Shown in pieces: positions 26,158-41,870 of a stretch of DNA of 64,000 nt (positions are counted from its first letter, which is position 1; each line of letters begins with the position of its first letter). This stretch comes from a virus (Duplodnaviria > Caudoviricetes). A program made the translations under genes and the position numbers. Below the pieces are notes generated by a model. That model worked only from the letters and a program-made list of their open reading frames with translations, had not been told where the DNA came from and ran no database searches. Where the stretch lies: IMG/VR virus record IMGVR_UViG_3300021431_000076, positions 224,001-288,000 of that record; one strand, given 5' to 3'.

Positions 26158-26233
26158 TATACACATTTAAAGACAATAAGGTGTTGGAATGAATCCAACA
26201 CCTTAATTTATATCTATTTAGGAGGAATTTAAA

Positions 26234-26629
26234 ATGGAAATCAAAACTGCAAAAGAAATTAGAAAAGCTATGAAAGATAAATTTGAAAATAATAGCCAGC
26301 TTGCTTTTGAAACTGTTTGTGATACTATAATGAAAAAGATAGAGAGGTCAGCATTAAAAGATGCCCTCTTCTCTACTGAATATGATTTTGAAAAACAATT
26401 AGACTATCTTAAACTCTCAACAATTAAAGGAGAAGAAGAAAAAGTAATTGGGTATTTGAAGTTTATAATCAATTCTTATAAAAACAAATCGGATAAAGAG
26501 TTATATAATGCTTTTGAGTCTCAGGTAGTAAATCTTCTTATAACAAAAGGATATACAGTTGAGAAAGAAGAAGGTCTTTTAAATAGATTCAAAATTACTA
26601 TTAGATGGGATAAAGAGGTAGATGAATAA
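26234..26629 (+). CDS. Hypothetical protein (paralog 1 of the TAxE...IxW family)
   Basis: SD AGGAGG. Confidence 0.8.
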   Translation: MEIKTAKEIRKAMKDKFENNSQLAFETVCDTIMKKIERSALKDALFSTEYDFEKQLDYLKLSTIKGEEEKVIGYLKFIINSYKNKSDKELYNAFESQVVNLLITKGYTVEKEEGLLNRFKITIRWDKEVDE

Positions 26630-31318: not shown

Positions 31319-31394
31319 TTAGAAAAGATAGCCTATATCATTAGGCTATCTTTTTATTCATCCATATACTATATATTAGAAGGAGGAATGTAAA

Positions 31395-31682
31395 ATGTAT
31401 GTAAGACCTTATGAAGCTCTAGAGAAACTCGGTAATGAAATAATGTATATTGACGAGTTATCTGGTGAAACAAGAACAGGATTGGTTGTAGGAAAGGAGA
31501 GAATAGGTGAAAAAGCAGTAATGGTATTTGTTGCATCACCATATGATGATGAAAATGATAAAACGGAAGGGATGATTAAATATCGAGATATCATCATGTT
31601 TGATGATATGCCTATTGATGTGCATGGTTGGGGACGAGATGCTGTCCTTAAAGAATATGGTAAGTATATAGGAGTAGAATGA
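31395..31682 (+). CDS. Hypothetical protein
   Basis: Early motif near 31363; SD AGGAGG. Confidence 0.8.
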   Translation: MYVRPYEALEKLGNEIMYIDELSGETRTGLVVGKERIGEKAVMVFVASPYDDENDKTEGMIKYRDIIMFDDMPIDVHGWGRDAVLKEYGKYIGVE

Positions 31683-33996: not shown

Positions 33997-34018
33997 AATT
34001 GAGTAAGGAGAATGTAAA

Positions 34019-34762
34019 ATGAAAAGCAAATCTGTCTATATACCAGAAGAATATAGTTACGAATTGAGTAATGCTGAAGAACTTATATTCGAGTGCGAAG
34101 AAGATGCTAAGAAATATATAGAACTTCGTTATATATTTGATGATGAAGTATCATATAACCCAGTAGAGTCTTTCCGGTTTAGTATAAATGAAGAAAAACC
34201 TAAACCAACTAAATTCGTCATTATCCCTAAAGGCCATCAGCCTCCTATATTAGAGGAAGAGCTTGAGTTTGGCCCTAACTACTGTAAAAATATAGCCTAT
34301 CTCAAATCTTTCAAACTTGTCATAGATGGAGAAGGATTAAAAACCTATGTTGATCCTGGATGCCATATTACTAGTATACCAAATCTGGATAAGTTTACTC
34401 AAGGAGGAGGCCAATTAAATTATAATTTAACCGATAATAATGAGTTCAGACTAATAAGAACTATTAAACTGGACGATAAAGAAGATGATCATGCTTGGCA
34501 TGACTACATTATGTTGAGATATACAGAAACGCCAGCATTTAAATCAAAGACAGTTGATATTGTTATATTCCGAGTATTTGATAAAGATACGTTTAAAGAA
34601 ACTCATAAAGGAATGAGCAAAGTACAAGTTGCTGATGATTGTAAGAAACTCACTGATACTTTTGAAGGTTGGTATAAAGACAAAATCTCTTTCTATGCTG
34701 GTGAATGTGTTGGTAAAGTTCAAAAACTTAGAAGAAGTATTAATGATATTCTGAATGACTAA
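34019..34762 (+). CDS. Hypothetical protein
   Basis: SD AAGGAG. Confidence 0.8.
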   Translation: MKSKSVYIPEEYSYELSNAEELIFECEEDAKKYIELRYIFDDEVSYNPVESFRFSINEEKPKPTKFVIIPKGHQPPILEEELEFGPNYCKNIAYLKSFKLVIDGEGLKTYVDPGCHITSIPNLDKFTQGGGQLNYNLTDNNEFRLIRTIKLDDKEDDHAWHDYIMLRYTETPAFKSKTVDIVIFRVFDKDTFKETHKGMSKVQVADDCKKLTDTFEGWYKDKISFYAGECVGKVQKLRRSINDILND

Positions 34763-37534: not shown

Positions 37535-37579
37535 ACACAATAATTTCACCCTAGGGATTTCTCCCTAGGGTGAATTACA

Positions 37580-37790
37580 CGGAAAAAAAATTTAATTTGA
37601 GCTGGACGATAGACAACTCAATCAGGTTTATCTAAGGGACTCGAACCCATAGATAATAAGGCTTCCTTATTTATACGTACCATAAGGAATAGATTCTTAT
37701 CAAGAAAGTGTTACGAGCCAATCTTAATAAGAAGATTTTGAATGTTTTTTGAAGCGTTTTAGGCCATTAAGGTGCCAACATAATGGTTAT
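37580..37790 (-). ncRNA. Candidate multi-hairpin ncRNA with a tRNA-like T-loop
   Basis: About six tandem hairpins, GGG-UUCGAGU-CCC at 37636-37648, terminal U run, no ORF. Confidence 0.45.
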
Positions 37791-37904
37791 ATCTATGTGC
37801 AAACAATAATATATCACTAGGGACCTCCATCCCTAGTGATATACATATATTGTTTTGTCCAAAAACAATAGAACCAGACCAACTGACTCTTATTATATAG
37901 TTAT

Positions 37905-38010
37905 AACAAAAATAATCCACTACAGGTGGCAGCCTGTAGTGGAACGTTCAAGGGGAATACTTAAACGATTAAGAGGAATGTAAAATGAAAAACAAAAAGC
38001 TTTTCGGCCT
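37905..38010 (-). ncRNA. Candidate anti-SD small RNA B
   Basis: GACA-N6-TA at 38010-38021; contains UUUCAUUUUACAUUCCUCUU; terminator hairpin 37916-37943 with minus-strand U run. Confidence 0.45.
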
Positions 38011-38114
38011 ACTATATTGTCTATACTTAATTAAAATTATAATAACTCTCTAGTAACTTTTATTACATTTATATACTATTTATATGGAGGATTATAAAAG
38101 AAAGAAGGAGACAT

Positions 38115-38607: not shown

Positions 38608-39267
38608 ATGAAGTTGATTGTAGTAGTAGATTTACAGAATGAATTCCTTGGTTGGCAACCTGAAGAGATTAAGAAATCTCTTCCAAAGAAAGTGGTGGAT
38701 TATCTAAAAAATCAAATGGAAAAGAGTGATCATACAAGAATAATATGTACTCGTGATACACATCTTGAAAAAGATTATAATGAATATTTTGAATCTTGGA
38801 CTTATCCAATTCATTGTGTTCGTGGTACTTGGGAATGGGAATTAGCAGATGAGCTTGAGGCATTCATGAATGATAGAGCCTATAAAAAGTGCTGGGTAGT
38901 CAATAAACCTACTTATGGAGACTATTCTGATATACTGGGACTTAAAAGACTCTTTAGATGGGAATTTGACGAAATTGAAGTAGTTGGTCTTACAACAGAT
39001 ATTTGTGTATTGGCTACTATGGTTATGCTCAACTGCCTATTCCCTAAAGCAGAATTATCTGTTATTGATGAGCTTACTTATGGTACTTCTGAAGAGAAGA
39101 AACAGCATGCTTATCAAATAATTAATTCTATGGGATTCCATATCAAGACACTTCAGGGATTTGATTATAATACTCCTGAAGCATGGGAAGATGAAGCTAT
39201 CGAAAATAAAGTTATTGATAAGTGTTTTGAGATGGCTGACAATCTTAAAGAGAAGGATGATGAATAA
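38608..39267 (+). CDS. pncA: Nicotinamidase / isochorismatase-family cysteine hydrolase
   Basis: VVDLQNEF, TRDTH, HCVxGT, K and GLTTDICV catalytic motifs. Confidence 0.8.
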   Translation: MKLIVVVDLQNEFLGWQPEEIKKSLPKKVVDYLKNQMEKSDHTRIICTRDTHLEKDYNEYFESWTYPIHCVRGTWEWELADELEAFMNDRAYKKCWVVNKPTYGDYSDILGLKRLFRWEFDEIEVVGLTTDICVLATMVMLNCLFPKAELSVIDELTYGTSEEKKQHAYQIINSMGFHIKTLQGFDYNTPEAWEDEAIENKVIDKCFEMADNLKEKDDE

Positions 39268-41870
39268 TGAGAAAAATGATCATCATGAGGGGCTTACCTG
39301 GTTCTGGTAAGTCCACATGGATTAGACAACATGACCTAGAGGACTATACTCTATCTCCTGATAATATTAGAAAGATTGTTGCTAATCCTGTCATGAGAAT
39401 AGATATTCCATACTTCACTGTAGATCAGACTAGAGATTTCATTGCATGGGGTATTCTGTTTGATGTTCTGGAGCAGAGAATGCAGAGAGGTAACTTTACT
39501 GTTATTGATGCTACAACTCTTACTGCAGACCAGTTCAATAGATATAAAAAGCTTATTGAGAGATATAAGTATAGAGCATTGATAGTAGACTTTACTGATA
39601 TGCCTCTAGAAGAGATCAAGAAGCAGAATGCAGAAAGAGCTAATACAGTAGGTTATGTTCCTGAATGGGCTATTGATAGGCTCTATACCAGATGGGAGAA
39701 TACTGAAGAGTTTATTAAGTCTAATAAGTTTAAGATTATTAAGCCTACCGACTTCTATGAGTTTGATAAGTTCATGTCTATGAAACCTCTTCAGCTAGAT
39801 GAAATGGGTTTCAAGAAAGTAGTATTCATTGGTGATATTCATGGTTGCTGGTCTGCATTGAATAACTACTTTAAGGATACTACTCCTAATGATCATCCTG
39901 ATACATTCTATATATTCTTAGGTGATTATTTGGATAGAGGCCCTGAGAATGTGGAGACTTTCAAACACTTATACGATTGGAGGGAATGCAAGAACGTCTT
40001 ATTACTGCAAGGTAATCATGAAGATCATTGGAAGAATTTTGTTCATGATAATATACCAGATGATGCTTATGAGAAGATTGATTTCTTTAAAGAAACTCTT
40101 CCTCAGTTAACTGAAGCTGGTATCACTAAGAAAGATATCGCTAGATTAGCTGATAGACTTGGTCAGTGTGCTTACTTGCAGAATAAGTTTACTCAAATTT
40201 TAGCTACTCATGCTGGTATCAATGGTATGATTAAAACTTATGAAGATGGTAAGAAGATAGCTACTAGCTTCTATGATTCTTATTTCCTTACTAAGATGAA
40301 TACCTATCAAATGGTACATGGTGTTGGTGGATATGGTGATGTAAATAAGATTGCTGAACAGTGGGAAGAATTCATCAATGTTTCTAAAGGTCAAATCAAA
40401 GGTGGAGAATTCAAATTCTACCAAATCTTTGGTCATAGAAATGATGATAAACTTCCTGTTCAAGTATCTGAACATGTCTTCAATTTAGAGGGTGGAGTAT
40501 CTATCCTTCTCAATGAGAATGCTAGACTTAGAATAGTAGAGTATGATGTTGAGAATGATACTATGACTCCTGTGGAGGTCATAAATCCTAAGTGGAATAT
40601 AGGTTATGAGAATACTCCTAATCCTCATACTGCTCTTATCAAAGATAGAATGATTAGAGCTAAGGGTCTTATCAATGTGAAGAGATTGCATGATAATGTA
40701 TGTGCATTCAACTTCTCTCATGATGCTTGGTATTCTAAAGGGTGGAATAGTCTTACTTGTACTGCAAGAGGATTGTTCATAGACGTGGAAAAGAATGAAG
40801 TAGTTGCTAGATCTTACGATAAGTTCTTCAATTACAAAGAAAGAAGAGAGACAAAAGATCTTGATCAGATGCTTAGACATATCAAGTATCCTGTAAGTGT
40901 ATATGAAAAATATAATGGCTTCCTTGGTATTCTTTCTACATACAATGGAGAATTACTGTTTTGCAGTAAGTCTGAGGATCATTTATCCACTTACAAGAGT
41001 AATAGCGATTATGTACCTCCTCTTGGTAAGAAGATTGAGTATGCCATTAAGGATGGTCTGCGGGCTATTATCCCAAAAGAGAAGCAAGAAAAGTTAAAGC
41101 ATTGGTTTGATGAGCATGAATATTATTCCATGTCTAGAATAGTAAATAAACATCTTATCGACCATAGACAACCATCTAACTGCATGGCTCTTCTCTTCAA
41201 AGAGAACTTTGAAAAGCTTGTTCCTATAGAAACTCAGGAGAAGATTAAGAAGTTCTTACTAGAAAAGAACTGCTCTATGCTATTTGAAGTAATTGATCCT
41301 GAAAGAGATCCTCATATCGTTGTATATGATAAACCTAGAGTAGTATTACTTGATATCGTATATAATGATATTGAGAAGCCAGCAACTCTCTTCAGTTATA
41401 AGAATCTGCAGAATCTAAATAATGGTGTCTTCCATATTGATCTCAAAGAGCAAGTAGAAGTCATTAAAGATGAAGAACATTTTAGAGCATTTGTAGAAGG
41501 ATTCTATGGTTCTACTCATCTTAACAAAGAAGGATTTGTATGTAAAGATGCTGAAGGATTCATGCTCAAGTTCAAGACAGCAGATTATAAGTTCTGGAAA
41601 TGTATAAGAACTATGCTTGATAGTATCAATGATAGTGAGTATGGAGCTGTTCCTACATTCAAGCATACTTGTCCTTACTTATCTGCTGAATTTGATTCTA
41701 CTGTGGTTCAATACTATAGTGAAAAGTTTGATAATCTACTAGAATTCTTATTAGAAAAGTTTGGTCAAGAGAGAAGAGATGAACGTATAATATTACCTCC
41801 TAACTTCTTAATCAAACCAGATGGTAGTAGATACAATCTTATCGAAATTCGTAAAATGGCAAACATGTAA
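39267..41870 (+). CDS. Trifunctional RNA repair enzyme: polynucleotide kinase, metallophosphoesterase and RNA ligase (Pnkp-like)
   Basis: GLPGSGKS P-loop; GDIHG, GDYLDRG, GNHE, HAG, FGH; ligase motifs EKYNG, FE, EGFV and KxK. Confidence 0.9.
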   Translation: MRKMIIMRGLPGSGKSTWIRQHDLEDYTLSPDNIRKIVANPVMRIDIPYFTVDQTRDFIAWGILFDVLEQRMQRGNFTVIDATTLTADQFNRYKKLIERYKYRALIVDFTDMPLEEIKKQNAERANTVGYVPEWAIDRLYTRWENTEEFIKSNKFKIIKPTDFYEFDKFMSMKPLQLDEMGFKKVVFIGDIHGCWSALNNYFKDTTPNDHPDTFYIFLGDYLDRGPENVETFKHLYDWRECKNVLLLQGNHEDHWKNFVHDNIPDDAYEKIDFFKETLPQLTEAGITKKDIARLADRLGQCAYLQNKFTQILATHAGINGMIKTYEDGKKIATSFYDSYFLTKMNTYQMVHGVGGYGDVNKIAEQWEEFINVSKGQIKGGEFKFYQIFGHRNDDKLPVQVSEHVFNLEGGVSILLNENARLRIVEYDVENDTMTPVEVINPKWNIGYENTPNPHTALIKDRMIRAKGLINVKRLHDNVCAFNFSHDAWYSKGWNSLTCTARGLFIDVEKNEVVARSYDKFFNYKERRETKDLDQMLRHIKYPVSVYEKYNGFLGILSTYNGELLFCSKSEDHLSTYKSNSDYVPPLGKKIEYAIKDGLRAIIPKEKQEKLKHWFDEHEYYSMSRIVNKHLIDHRQPSNCMALLFKENFEKLVPIETQEKIKKFLLEKNCSMLFEVIDPERDPHIVVYDKPRVVLLDIVYNDIEKPATLFSYKNLQNLNNGVFHIDLKEQVEVIKDEEHFRAFVEGFYGSTHLNKEGFVCKDAEGFMLKFKTADYKFWKCIRTMLDSINDSEYGAVPTFKHTCPYLSAEFDSTVVQYYSEKFDNLLEFLLEKFGQERRDERIILPPNFLIKPDGSRYNLIEIRKMANM

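What the first reader, a model, noticed from the sequence alone, without database searches (positions are those of the whole stretch)
37905..38053. Anti-RBS small RNA with exact complementarity to start regions of two genes in this window
Seen: the minus-strand unit has GACA-N6-TA (38010-38021), then UUUUUCAUUUUACAUUCCUCUU, a hairpin CGUUUAAG/CUUGAACG with a C-rich UAUUCCC loop, and a terminator with a U run. Its plus-strand image shares GAGGAATGTAAAATG (15 nt) with the start of gene 31395 and GAATGTAAAATGAAAA (16 nt) with the start of gene 34019, and is close to the start of 38608. Alternative reading: a plus-strand 22-aa peptide MKNKKLFGLLYCLYLIKIIITL (37985-38053) with a cis-antisense RNA, like a type I toxin-antitoxin pair.
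Basis: partly seen in the sequence, partly recalled or inferred. Interest (0 to 1): 0.7.

Follow-up and report, generated by a model that had tools for sequence, protein, structure and literature searches.

The report
Late anti-ribosome-site small RNA, jumbo phage
A gene-free gap in an uncultured giant phage related to Bacillus phage AR9 most likely holds a conserved gene for a roughly 105-base RNA, read against its neighbours, whose exposed stretch mirrors a ribosome start site; the two target genes first proposed fit no better than chance, and the small-toxin reading fails.

Summary
The window lies in a 333-kb IMG/VR jumbo phage with AR9-type multisubunit RNA polymerases and AR9-type early and late promoter motifs.

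A minus-strand RNA gene of about 105 nt (38010 to about 37905) is well supported:
- It has a late-type promoter, GACA-N6-TA, inside a conserved island.
- It has an invariant 30-nt unpaired segment, an 8-bp hairpin with a UAUUCCC loop, and a terminator whose U tail exists only on the minus strand.
- The hairpin has a G·U pair that works only on the minus strand, and one compensatory pair.
- Two sister phages keep this stretch at 78-95% identity, against 40-70% in the flanking genes.

The 22-aa ORF is cut to 13 aa in one sister and frameshifted to 16 aa in the other, so the type I toxin reading is rejected.

The 15- and 16-nt matches to genes 31395 and 34019 are not special. 6-8% of gene starts in this genome share as much with another start, and the duplex energies are average for the antisense of any start site. 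So an anti-start-site RNA is plausible, but its targets are unknown and no transcript data could be obtained.

This scan has already noted similar late anti-ribosome-site RNAs in other AR9-like phages.

The parts
38008..38025 (-). Late-type promoter GACA-N6-TA (38021-38010) inside an invariant island. The predicted start is the A at 38010.
   Evidence: The motif class VACA-N6-TA is enriched 3-5 fold upstream of genes and peaks 20-50 nt before the ATG. It matches the AR9 late consensus AACA-(6N)-TA/G, whose last base is the start site (PMC5312081). The island CCTACTATATTGTCTATA is identical in three phages while both of its flanks vary.
37904..38010 (-). Predicted small RNA ('RNA1'), about 105 nt.
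   Evidence: Bounded by the promoter and the terminator. Fold -31.7 kcal/mol, z -6.0. Consensus fold of three sequences. Single copy in this genome and in its sister. No Rfam family matches.
37999..38010 (-). Variable 5' end of the RNA. The weak A-U hairpin here is not conserved.
   Evidence: AGGCCGAAAAGC, AGGCCGAAAAAGC and AGGUCGAGUGCU in the three phages; pairs are broken in L005.
37969..37998 (-). Invariant unpaired 30-nt segment UUUUUGUUUUUCAUUUUACAUUCCUCUUAA. It is the complement of GAGG, an 8-nt spacer, AUG and AAAAACAAAAA.
   Evidence: Identical in all three phages. A 6-nt insertion in L005 lies just beside it. It is unpaired in the window's fold.
37945..37967 (-). 8-bp hairpin presenting the loop UAUUCCC (an unpaired UCCC motif).
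   Evidence: The U·G pair is kept in all three and would be a C·A mismatch on the plus strand. The outer pair changes from C-G to U-A in L005, a compensatory change.
37905..37943 (-). Intrinsic terminator: an 11-bp stem (37943-37916) plus the tail UUAUUUUUGUU.
   Evidence: The tail matches this genome's usual terminator tails (TTTTTGT / TTATTGT) only on the minus strand; the plus side reads ACGTTCAAGG.
37985..38053 (+). 22-aa ORF, judged not to be a gene.
   Evidence: 13 aa in L005 and 16 aa after a 1-nt insertion in L008; only MKNKK is shared, and that part overlaps the invariant RNA segment.
38054..38090 (+). Promoter of the next gene (38115): AGTAAC, a spacer, then TATATACTAT. It faces away from the RNA1 promoter.
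   Evidence: TATATACTAT at 38070. The same 10-mer occurs 23 times in the genome, mostly 30-100 nt before gene starts and often with an upstream GTAAA box. It is conserved in the sisters.
34004..34030 (+). Best predicted pairing partner: the start region of gene 34019. It is not shown to be a target.
   Evidence: -29.1 kcal/mol; 21 pairs including one G·U. A 21-pair duplex also exists in the sister, although the proteins are only 37% identical. It is within the null range.
31383..31397 (+). 15-nt exact match at the start of gene 31395. It is not shown to be a target.
   Evidence: -23.7 kcal/mol, ranked 4th. The sister has one A-to-G change, which would give a G·U pair.

Best explanation
The stretch is a stand-alone small-RNA gene on the minus strand of an AR9-like jumbo phage.

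Proposed mechanism, step by step:
1. The phage's non-virion RNA polymerase starts at the late-type promoter GACA-N6-TA (start at A38010). This is inferred from the motif and its conservation.
2. Transcription stops at the hairpin with a U tail at 37943-37905. This is inferred.
3. The RNA of about 105 nt carries a variable 12-nt 5' end and an invariant, unpaired 30-nt U/C-rich segment that is the exact complement of a canonical translation start (SD GAGG, 8-nt spacer, AUG, A-rich codons). It also carries a conserved hairpin displaying UAUUCCC, and the terminator. All of this is shown by the sequence and by comparison with the sisters.
4. It most likely pairs with ribosome-binding start regions of messenger RNAs, phage or host, and keeps the 30S subunit off them late in infection. 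C/U-rich-seed small RNAs of Firmicutes work this way. This step is inferred by analogy only.

Which messages it binds is not determined. Genes 34019, 26234, 31395 and 38608 score best, but no better than expected for any start-site antisense.
For: Phage type:
- Two Rpb2-like ORFs and one Rpb1-like ORF.
- An early-type motif ATATATTAT-N6-G and a late-type VACA-N6-TA, as in AR9 (PMC5312081).

Promoter:
- GACA-N6-TA is the most enriched gapped motif upstream of genes, at 5.3-fold.
- The site lies in an 18-nt island that is invariant in three phages while both neighbours vary.

Strand:
- Hairpin 2 has a U·G pair, which would be C·A on the plus strand, and one compensatory change.
- The terminator tail is T-rich only on the minus strand. 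Elsewhere in the genome, co-oriented tails outnumber opposite-only tails 44 to 12.
- The minus-strand fold has z -6.0 against -2.8 for the plus strand.

Constraint:
- 78-95% identity across 37800-38080, against 40-70% in the flanking coding DNA.
- The 30-nt segment is invariant.

Not coding:
- The ORF is cut or frameshifted in both sisters.

No plus-strand message:
- Gene 38115 has its own promoter downstream of the ORF.
- No early, type-B or late motif lies on the plus strand between 37845 and 37984.

Class support:
- A second unit of late promoter, anti-start-site tracts and terminator at G000:216336-216510 is almost 100% conserved in the sister.

Mechanistic precedent:
- Unpaired UCCC motifs of staphylococcal small RNAs bind SD sequences and block initiation complexes (PMC2790875).
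Against:
- Only three closely related genomes carry the locus, so covariation rests on one pair.
- The late motif is short (about 0.7 matches per kb per strand). A second match in the gap, at 37859-37848, is not conserved, so a motif match alone proves little.
- Complementarity to gene starts is average for any start-site antisense. The invariant segment could therefore be conserved for another reason, or for its plus-strand reading as a real ribosome-binding site.
- In L005 the lowest-energy fold pairs the anti-SD bases with the RNA's own 5' end.
Confidence: 0.45

Rival explanations
1. The minus-strand RNA is real, but it does not act by masking start sites. It could be a protein-binding or decoy RNA. 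It could be one member of a convergent transcription and termination block that insulates the upstream plus-strand operon from the next one. Or it could be a cis-antisense RNA against transcripts that read through from upstream.
For: - Target complementarity is no better than the null.
- The gap holds several hairpins with minus-oriented tails and a bidirectional one at 37810-37843.
- The upstream operon's first hairpin (37545-37574) lacks a plus-strand U tail, so plus-strand read-through into the gap is plausible.
- A neighbouring minus-strand unit of about 250 nt and an RNA-repair enzyme gene lie nearby.
Against: - An insulator needs no invariant 30-nt unpaired segment that happens to be a perfect SD-spacer-AUG complement.
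- It also needs no conserved UCCC loop.
- A second late unit elsewhere in the genome again carries anti-start-site tracts.
Confidence: 0.25
2. The functional strand is the plus strand. Under this reading there is a genuine ribosome-binding site and start codon of a short, sequence-free leader ORF, or the remnant 5' end of a lost gene, preceded by two plus-strand hairpins. The minus-strand promoter and terminator would be look-alikes.
For: - The SD-spacer-ATG geometry is ideal.
- The identical 21-mer heads real genes in eight unrelated bacteria.
- A hairpin followed by an RBS is the usual plus-strand layout at gene boundaries. The RNA model weakly hits the antisense of such a boundary at 26168-26248.
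Against: - Hairpin 2 has a C·A mismatch on the plus strand in all three phages.
- No plus-strand promoter motif lies upstream, and the next promoter lies downstream of the ORF.
- The ORF's length and frame differ in all three phages.
- A decayed remnant would not be the best-conserved stretch in the neighbourhood.
- The island conserved inside the ORF coincides with the minus-strand promoter, not with codon positions.
Confidence: 0.15
3. This is a type I toxin-antitoxin-like pair: a plus-strand 22-aa hydrophobic peptide, held in check by the overlapping minus-strand antisense RNA.
For: - The window's peptide MKNKKLFGLLYCLYLIKIIITL is hydrophobic with a basic N-terminus.
- The antisense RNA would cover its SD and its first nine codons.
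Against: - The peptide is 13 aa in L005 (MKNKKALDLLYCL, with an in-frame TAG) and 16 aa after a frameshift in L008 (MKNKKLFRPTILSILN).
- The hydrophobic tail is therefore not conserved, while the RNA elements are.
- No plus-strand promoter was found.
Confidence: 0.04

Closest known systems
C/U-rich-seed base-pairing small RNAs of Firmicutes (RsaE/RoxS, other Rsa RNAs, RNAIII loops, LhrC)
   Same: A short stand-alone RNA that ends in an intrinsic terminator. It has unpaired UCCC/CCUC motifs complementary to Shine-Dalgarno sequences. The proposed action is blocking of the 30S initiation complex (PMC2790875).
   Different: It is encoded by a virulent-type jumbo phage and driven by a phage-polymerase late motif, not by a host sigma promoter. 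Its seed extends over the start codon and about four codons, 30 nt in all. There is no sequence or Rfam relationship to any of these RNAs.
Late antisense/orphan transcripts of Bacillus phage AR9 from AACA-(6N)-TA/G promoters
   Same: The same promoter grammar. In AR9, seven late promoters drive antisense transcription, and one such start (75478, minus strand) is listed as abundant (PMC5312081 text and supplementary file 4).
   Different: The AR9 transcripts are described only as antisense to annotated genes, with no function, seed or structure assigned. There is no detectable sequence similarity: the gap finds nothing in 50,697 phage records.
Bacillus subtilis sRNA ncr1241 (Rfam RF02451)
   Same: A weak likeness on the minus strand: a loop AGUAUUCCCC followed by a terminator hairpin.
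   Different: 21 bits against a gathering score of 60, E = 0.6. It is a chromosomal RNA of unknown function between yugI and alaT (PMC2965217). RNA1 is not a member.
Type I toxin-antitoxin pairs with 5'-overlapping antisense RNA (SymE/SymR-like layout; small toxins such as Ibs)
   Same: An antisense RNA would overlap the SD and start of a short hydrophobic ORF.
   Different: The ORF is not conserved in length, frame or hydrophobic character, and no toxin promoter is present.

Membership tests
AR9-type late (non-virion RNAP) transcription unit | The phage encodes multisubunit RNAP beta/beta'-like proteins. | tested here: met
   Rpb2_6 matches in ORFs of 831 and 1488 aa, and Rpb1_2 matches in an ORF of 540 aa.
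AR9-type late (non-virion RNAP) transcription unit | Promoter AACA-(6N)-TA/G, with the last base as the start site. | tested here: inconclusive
   The site reads GACA-N6-TA, with G rather than A at the first position. In this genome GACA-N6-TA is the most enriched variant upstream of genes, and the site is invariant in three phages. No start site has been mapped.
AR9-type late (non-virion RNAP) transcription unit | The transcript appears late and depends on phage protein synthesis. | not testable with these tools
Trans-acting anti-SD small RNAs of Firmicutes (RsaE/RoxS type) | A stable non-coding transcript with its own promoter and terminator. | tested here: inconclusive
   The promoter motif, terminator, conservation and broken ORF all support it, but no transcript has been observed.
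Trans-acting anti-SD small RNAs of Firmicutes (RsaE/RoxS type) | An unpaired, conserved C-rich motif complementary to SD sequences. | tested here: met
   CAUUCCUC lies in an unpaired invariant segment, and UAUUCCC lies in a conserved loop.
Trans-acting anti-SD small RNAs of Firmicutes (RsaE/RoxS type) | Specific mRNA targets whose pairing exceeds the background. | tested here: not met
   The best duplexes fall at the 24th-25th percentile of the null made from the antisense of every gene start. The shared-word null gives 6-8%.
Rfam families (all 4227) | A score at or above the family's gathering threshold. | tested here: not met
   No match in the window at gathering thresholds. The best sub-threshold hit is ncr1241, at 21 of 60 bits.
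Type I toxin-antitoxin system | A conserved small hydrophobic toxin ORF. | tested here: not met
   22 aa, 13 aa and a frameshifted 16 aa in the three phages.
Type I toxin-antitoxin system | A toxin mRNA with its own promoter, overlapped by the antisense RNA. | tested here: not met
   No early, type-B or late motif lies on the plus strand upstream of the ORF. The nearest plus-strand promoter lies downstream of it.

The most novel reading that the evidence does not exclude
AR9-like jumbo phages make, from late promoters, a small set of RNAs that carry generic mirror images of translation start sites. In this genome these would be RNA1 and the unit at G000:216336-216510. Together they would act as a broad, RNA-based translational switch late in infection, turning down host or earlier phage messages. 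That would be an RNA counterpart of protein repressors such as T4 RegA, rather than a regulator of one gene.
Probability: 0.15. Interest if true: 0.75.

Novelty: new variant of a known kind. Interest (0 to 1): 0.45.

Why it matters
Small regulatory RNAs of virulent and jumbo phages are barely charted. The jumbo-phage transcription papers read here (the AR9 study) list late antisense or orphan transcripts without assigning them a function.

A conserved, late-promoter-driven RNA that displays a perfect anti-start-site segment would be a concrete, testable candidate for RNA-level control of translation during jumbo-phage infection. It would also give a defined short transcript for studying initiation and termination by the non-virion RNA polymerase.

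The negative results matter too. Exact 15-16-nt matches between start regions are routine in an AT-rich genome and should not be read as sRNA-target evidence.

Tried and rejected
- **Rfam:** the whole window at gathering thresholds, and the gap at E up to 10. Nothing usable was found; ncr1241 scored 21 of 60 bits.
- **ARAGORN:** no tRNA in the window.
- **Phage GenBank:** the gap by blastn and the flanking 163-aa protein by tblastn gave no match. The Pnkp-like protein finds only relatives at 35% identity or less.
- **Viral-contig scans:** the two flanking proteins alone found no relative. A three-sequence alignment of the 163-aa protein found only the sister already known.
- **Exact-pattern scans:** these gave one sister phage (L005/L007/L010, all the same contig) and one short contig (L008). 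Two further metagenome hits (L009, L011) are chance matches inside a coding region.
- **Genome-collection scan for the 21-mer:** eight unrelated gene starts; no host clue and no homologue.
- **Covariance model R1:** no paralogue in this genome or in its sister.
- **Sigma-70 type promoter scan:** fewer hits in the region than in shuffled sequence (3 against a mean of 6.1), and none at a position that would serve RNA1.
- **Target class test:** genes behind type-B promoters pair slightly better on average (-16.3 against -13.7 kcal/mol), but no class stands out.
- **'Three tandem RNA genes':** the middle promoter match (37859-37848) is broken in both sisters, so only two units are credible.
- **TAG recoding as a way to rescue the ORF in L005:** TAG ends only 11 of 268 called genes, so recoding cannot be excluded. 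The frameshift in L008 breaks the peptide in any case.
- **PHROGs and Pfam on the putative target genes and their neighbours:** no annotation.

Full report
**Setting.**
- The window is bases 224001-288000 of a single 332,775-bp IMG/VR virus record with 31% G+C.
- The record encodes two Rpb2-like ORFs and one Rpb1-like ORF, so it is a jumbo phage with its own multisubunit RNA polymerases.
- Nearly all genes around the finding lie on the plus strand.
- The finding sits in a 580-nt gene-free gap (37535-38114). On one side is a 347-aa gene. On the other are a 163-aa gene, an isochorismatase-like gene and an 867-aa kinase-phosphatase-ligase (Pnkp-like) gene.

**Promoter grammar of this phage.** A search for gapped motifs enriched upstream of 268 crudely called genes put GACA-N6-TA (5.3-fold), AACA-N6-TA (3.6-fold) and CACA-N6-TA (2.8-fold) among the strongest enrichments, with GACA-N6-TA first. 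The sites peak 20-50 nt before start codons and often follow a terminator directly. Inspection of leaders showed two more classes:
- ATATATTATA-N3-GTGA (type A).
- GTAAA, a spacer, then TATATACTAT (type B).

The AR9 transcriptome paper reports the early consensus AAATATATATTAT-(6N)-G and the late consensus AACA-(6N)-TA/G, with the last base as the start. It also reports that seven late promoters drive antisense transcription (PMC5312081; supplementary table). Type A and the VACA-N6-TA class therefore correspond to AR9 early and late promoters. The phage is AR9-like in its transcription signals.

**Checking the observation.**
- GACA-atatag-TA at 38021-38010 on the minus strand.
- The U/C-rich stretch.
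- The hairpin at 37967-37945 with loop UAUUCCC.
- The hairpin at 37943-37916 followed by UUAUUUUUGU.
- The exact 15-nt and 16-nt repeats at 31383 and 34010.
- The 22-codon ORF.

**Is the complementarity meaningful?** Against shuffled DNA it looks striking, but that is the wrong null, because the sequence is a textbook SD-spacer-ATG.
- Among 268 start regions of this genome, 8% share an exact word of 15 nt or more with another start, and 6% share 16 nt or more.
- I used the antisense of every gene's start region (-16 to +14) as a mock sRNA. The mock best and second-best duplexes average -27.3 and -25.0 kcal/mol.
- The real segment gives -29.1 (34019) and -26.8 (26234), which is the 24th-25th percentile.
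- The same 21-mer heads ordinary, unrelated genes in eight bacterial genomes from several phyla.

The specific-target claim is therefore unsupported. This does not exclude start-site masking. It only means that sequence alone cannot name the targets.

**Evidence for a minus-strand RNA gene.**
1. Relatives. A 342-kb sister phage (L005; Pnkp 94% identical) and a 1.2-kb metagenome contig (L008) carry the locus.
2. Conservation. Identity to L005 is 78-95% across 37800-38080, but 40-70% in the flanking coding DNA.
3. Pattern of conservation. It follows RNA-gene logic:
   - an invariant 18-nt island around GACA-N6-TA;
   - a variable 12-nt 5' end;
   - an invariant 30-nt segment (37969-37998);
   - a 6-nt insertion just beside that segment in L005;
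   - a conserved hairpin and terminator.
4. Strand of hairpin 2. It keeps a U·G pair that would be C·A on the plus strand. Its outer pair changes from C-G to U-A in L005.
5. Terminator tail. It is T-rich only on the minus strand and resembles this genome's usual tails, TTTTTGT or TTATTGT. Genome-wide, hairpins with a co-oriented tail outnumber those with an opposite-only tail 44 to 15, and three of those 15 lie in this gap.
6. Fold. The minus strand folds far better than shuffles (z -6.0), the plus strand less so (z -2.8).
7. Motif count. Three late-motif matches fall on the minus strand of the gap, against 0.35 expected (P = 0.004). The middle one (37859-37848) is broken in both relatives. 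I therefore accept two units: RNA1 and a unit of about 250 nt from 37788 to about 37536.

**The ORF.** The window gives MKNKKLFGLLYCLYLIKIIITL. L005 gives MKNKKALDLLYCL and then TAG. L008 has a 1-nt insertion and gives MKNKKLFRPTILSILN. Only the part that overlaps the invariant RNA segment and the promoter island is shared. The next gene's type-B promoter (TATATACTAT at 38070) lies downstream of the ORF and faces away from the RNA1 promoter. No plus-strand promoter motif precedes the ORF. The type I toxin reading is rejected. A plus-strand leader-ORF reading is weak.

**Mechanism.**
- Shown: RNA1 has the anatomy of a Gram-positive base-pairing sRNA. It has an unpaired conserved C/U-rich segment containing CCUC and CAU at SD-to-AUG spacing, a second unpaired UCCC motif in a loop, and a terminator.
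- Precedent: in staphylococci, unpaired UCCC motifs bind SD sequences and block the initiation complex (PMC2790875).
- Inferred: RNA1 is made late and masks translation start regions.
- Candidates: the best are 34019 (21 pairs with one G·U, and 21 pairs also in the sister although the proteins are only 37% identical), 26234, 31395 (the sister's single change gives a G·U) and 38608. None of them exceeds the null.
- Class support: a genome-wide search for orphan start-site images with a late motif and a terminator on the opposite strand returned only RNA1 and one other unit, at G000:216336-216510. That unit carries several anti-SD tracts and is almost 100% conserved in the sister. The lineage therefore seems to keep at least two such RNAs.

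**Comparison with known systems.**
- No Rfam family matches. The sub-threshold likeness to B. subtilis ncr1241 (21 of 60 bits) reflects only the loop plus the terminator.
- There is no paralogue and no match in GenBank phages.
- By function the closest systems are the C-rich-seed sRNAs of Firmicutes. By transcription signal the closest are AR9 late antisense or orphan transcripts.
- Earlier notes of this scan describe similar late anti-ribosome-site RNAs in other AR9-like phages, and a follow-up on a look-alike stretch in another genome reached a similar view. These are unchecked AI notes and were not used as evidence. One of them gave me the lead to the AR9 supplementary table, which I then read myself.

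**Verdict.**

| Question | Result |
|---|---|
| Observation | Confirmed |
| Minus-strand sRNA gene | Probable, about 0.7 |
| Action by start-site masking | Plausible, about 0.4-0.45 overall |
| Named targets (31395, 34019) | Not supported |
| Toxin-antitoxin alternative | Rejected |

No expression data could be obtained.

Noticed in passing
window 37536-37799 (minus strand): A second credible minus-strand unit of about 250 nt. It has CACA-tagata-TA at 37799-37788, in a block that is invariant in L005. It ends at hairpin 37574-37545, whose tail AUUAUUGUGU exists only on the minus strand. It contains GGGUUCGAGUCCC (37653-37641), a tRNA T-arm-like hairpin kept in L005, but ARAGORN and Rfam find no tRNA. 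L005 has a 20-nt insertion near the 5' end.
   Followed up: partly
G000:C1:216336-216510 (+), which is window coordinate -7664 to -7490, outside the window: Another late-promoter unit. AACA-tatata-TA is followed by a 5' hairpin, then about 90 nt of U/C-rich RNA with the tracts CAUAAUGAAUCCUCCU, ACUCCUUUCAUG and CAUAAAACUUCCCU, and then the terminator CTCCCTAGGTAGAAATACCTAGGGAG. It is about 100% identical in the sister phage from the promoter to the terminator, with divergence right after it.
   Followed up: partly
window 37810-37843: A 14-bp hairpin (CACTAGGGA/TCCCTAGTG core) with T-rich tails on both strands, 95% conserved. It is likely a bidirectional terminator that stops plus-strand read-through from the upstream operon, whose own hairpin at 37545-37574 lacks a plus-strand U tail, as well as minus-strand read-through from RNA1.
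   Followed up: partly
window 37881-37908: The block CAACTGACTCTTATTATATAGTTATAAC between the two terminators is almost invariant in all three phages. It matches none of the three promoter classes. Its function is unexplained.
   Followed up: partly
genome-wide, e.g. window 1846, 23143, 38070, 42535, 55967, 60101: A third promoter-like class: GTAAA box, a spacer of about 10 nt, TATATACTAT, a few more bases, then ATGAG/TTGAG. TATATACTAT occurs 23 times and ATATACTAT 53 times, mostly 30-100 nt before gene starts. The AR9 paper describes only early and late classes, so this may be a middle class or a variant.
   Followed up: partly
window 39267-41870: An 867-aa fusion of a P-loop kinase, a metallophosphoesterase and a T4 Rnl1-like ligase (Pnkp-type RNA repair enzyme; PHROG 8238, E = 7e-170). 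It lies two genes downstream of the non-coding RNA cluster. In the sister phage an extra 383-aa gene is inserted between the 156-aa gene and the isochorismatase-like gene.
   Followed up: no
window 34019 vs L020:2265: The orthologues of gene 34019 are only 37% identical as proteins, yet the short intergenic region and start (GAATGTAAAATG plus A-rich codons) are kept. Start regions seem to evolve more slowly than the proteins here.
   Followed up: partly
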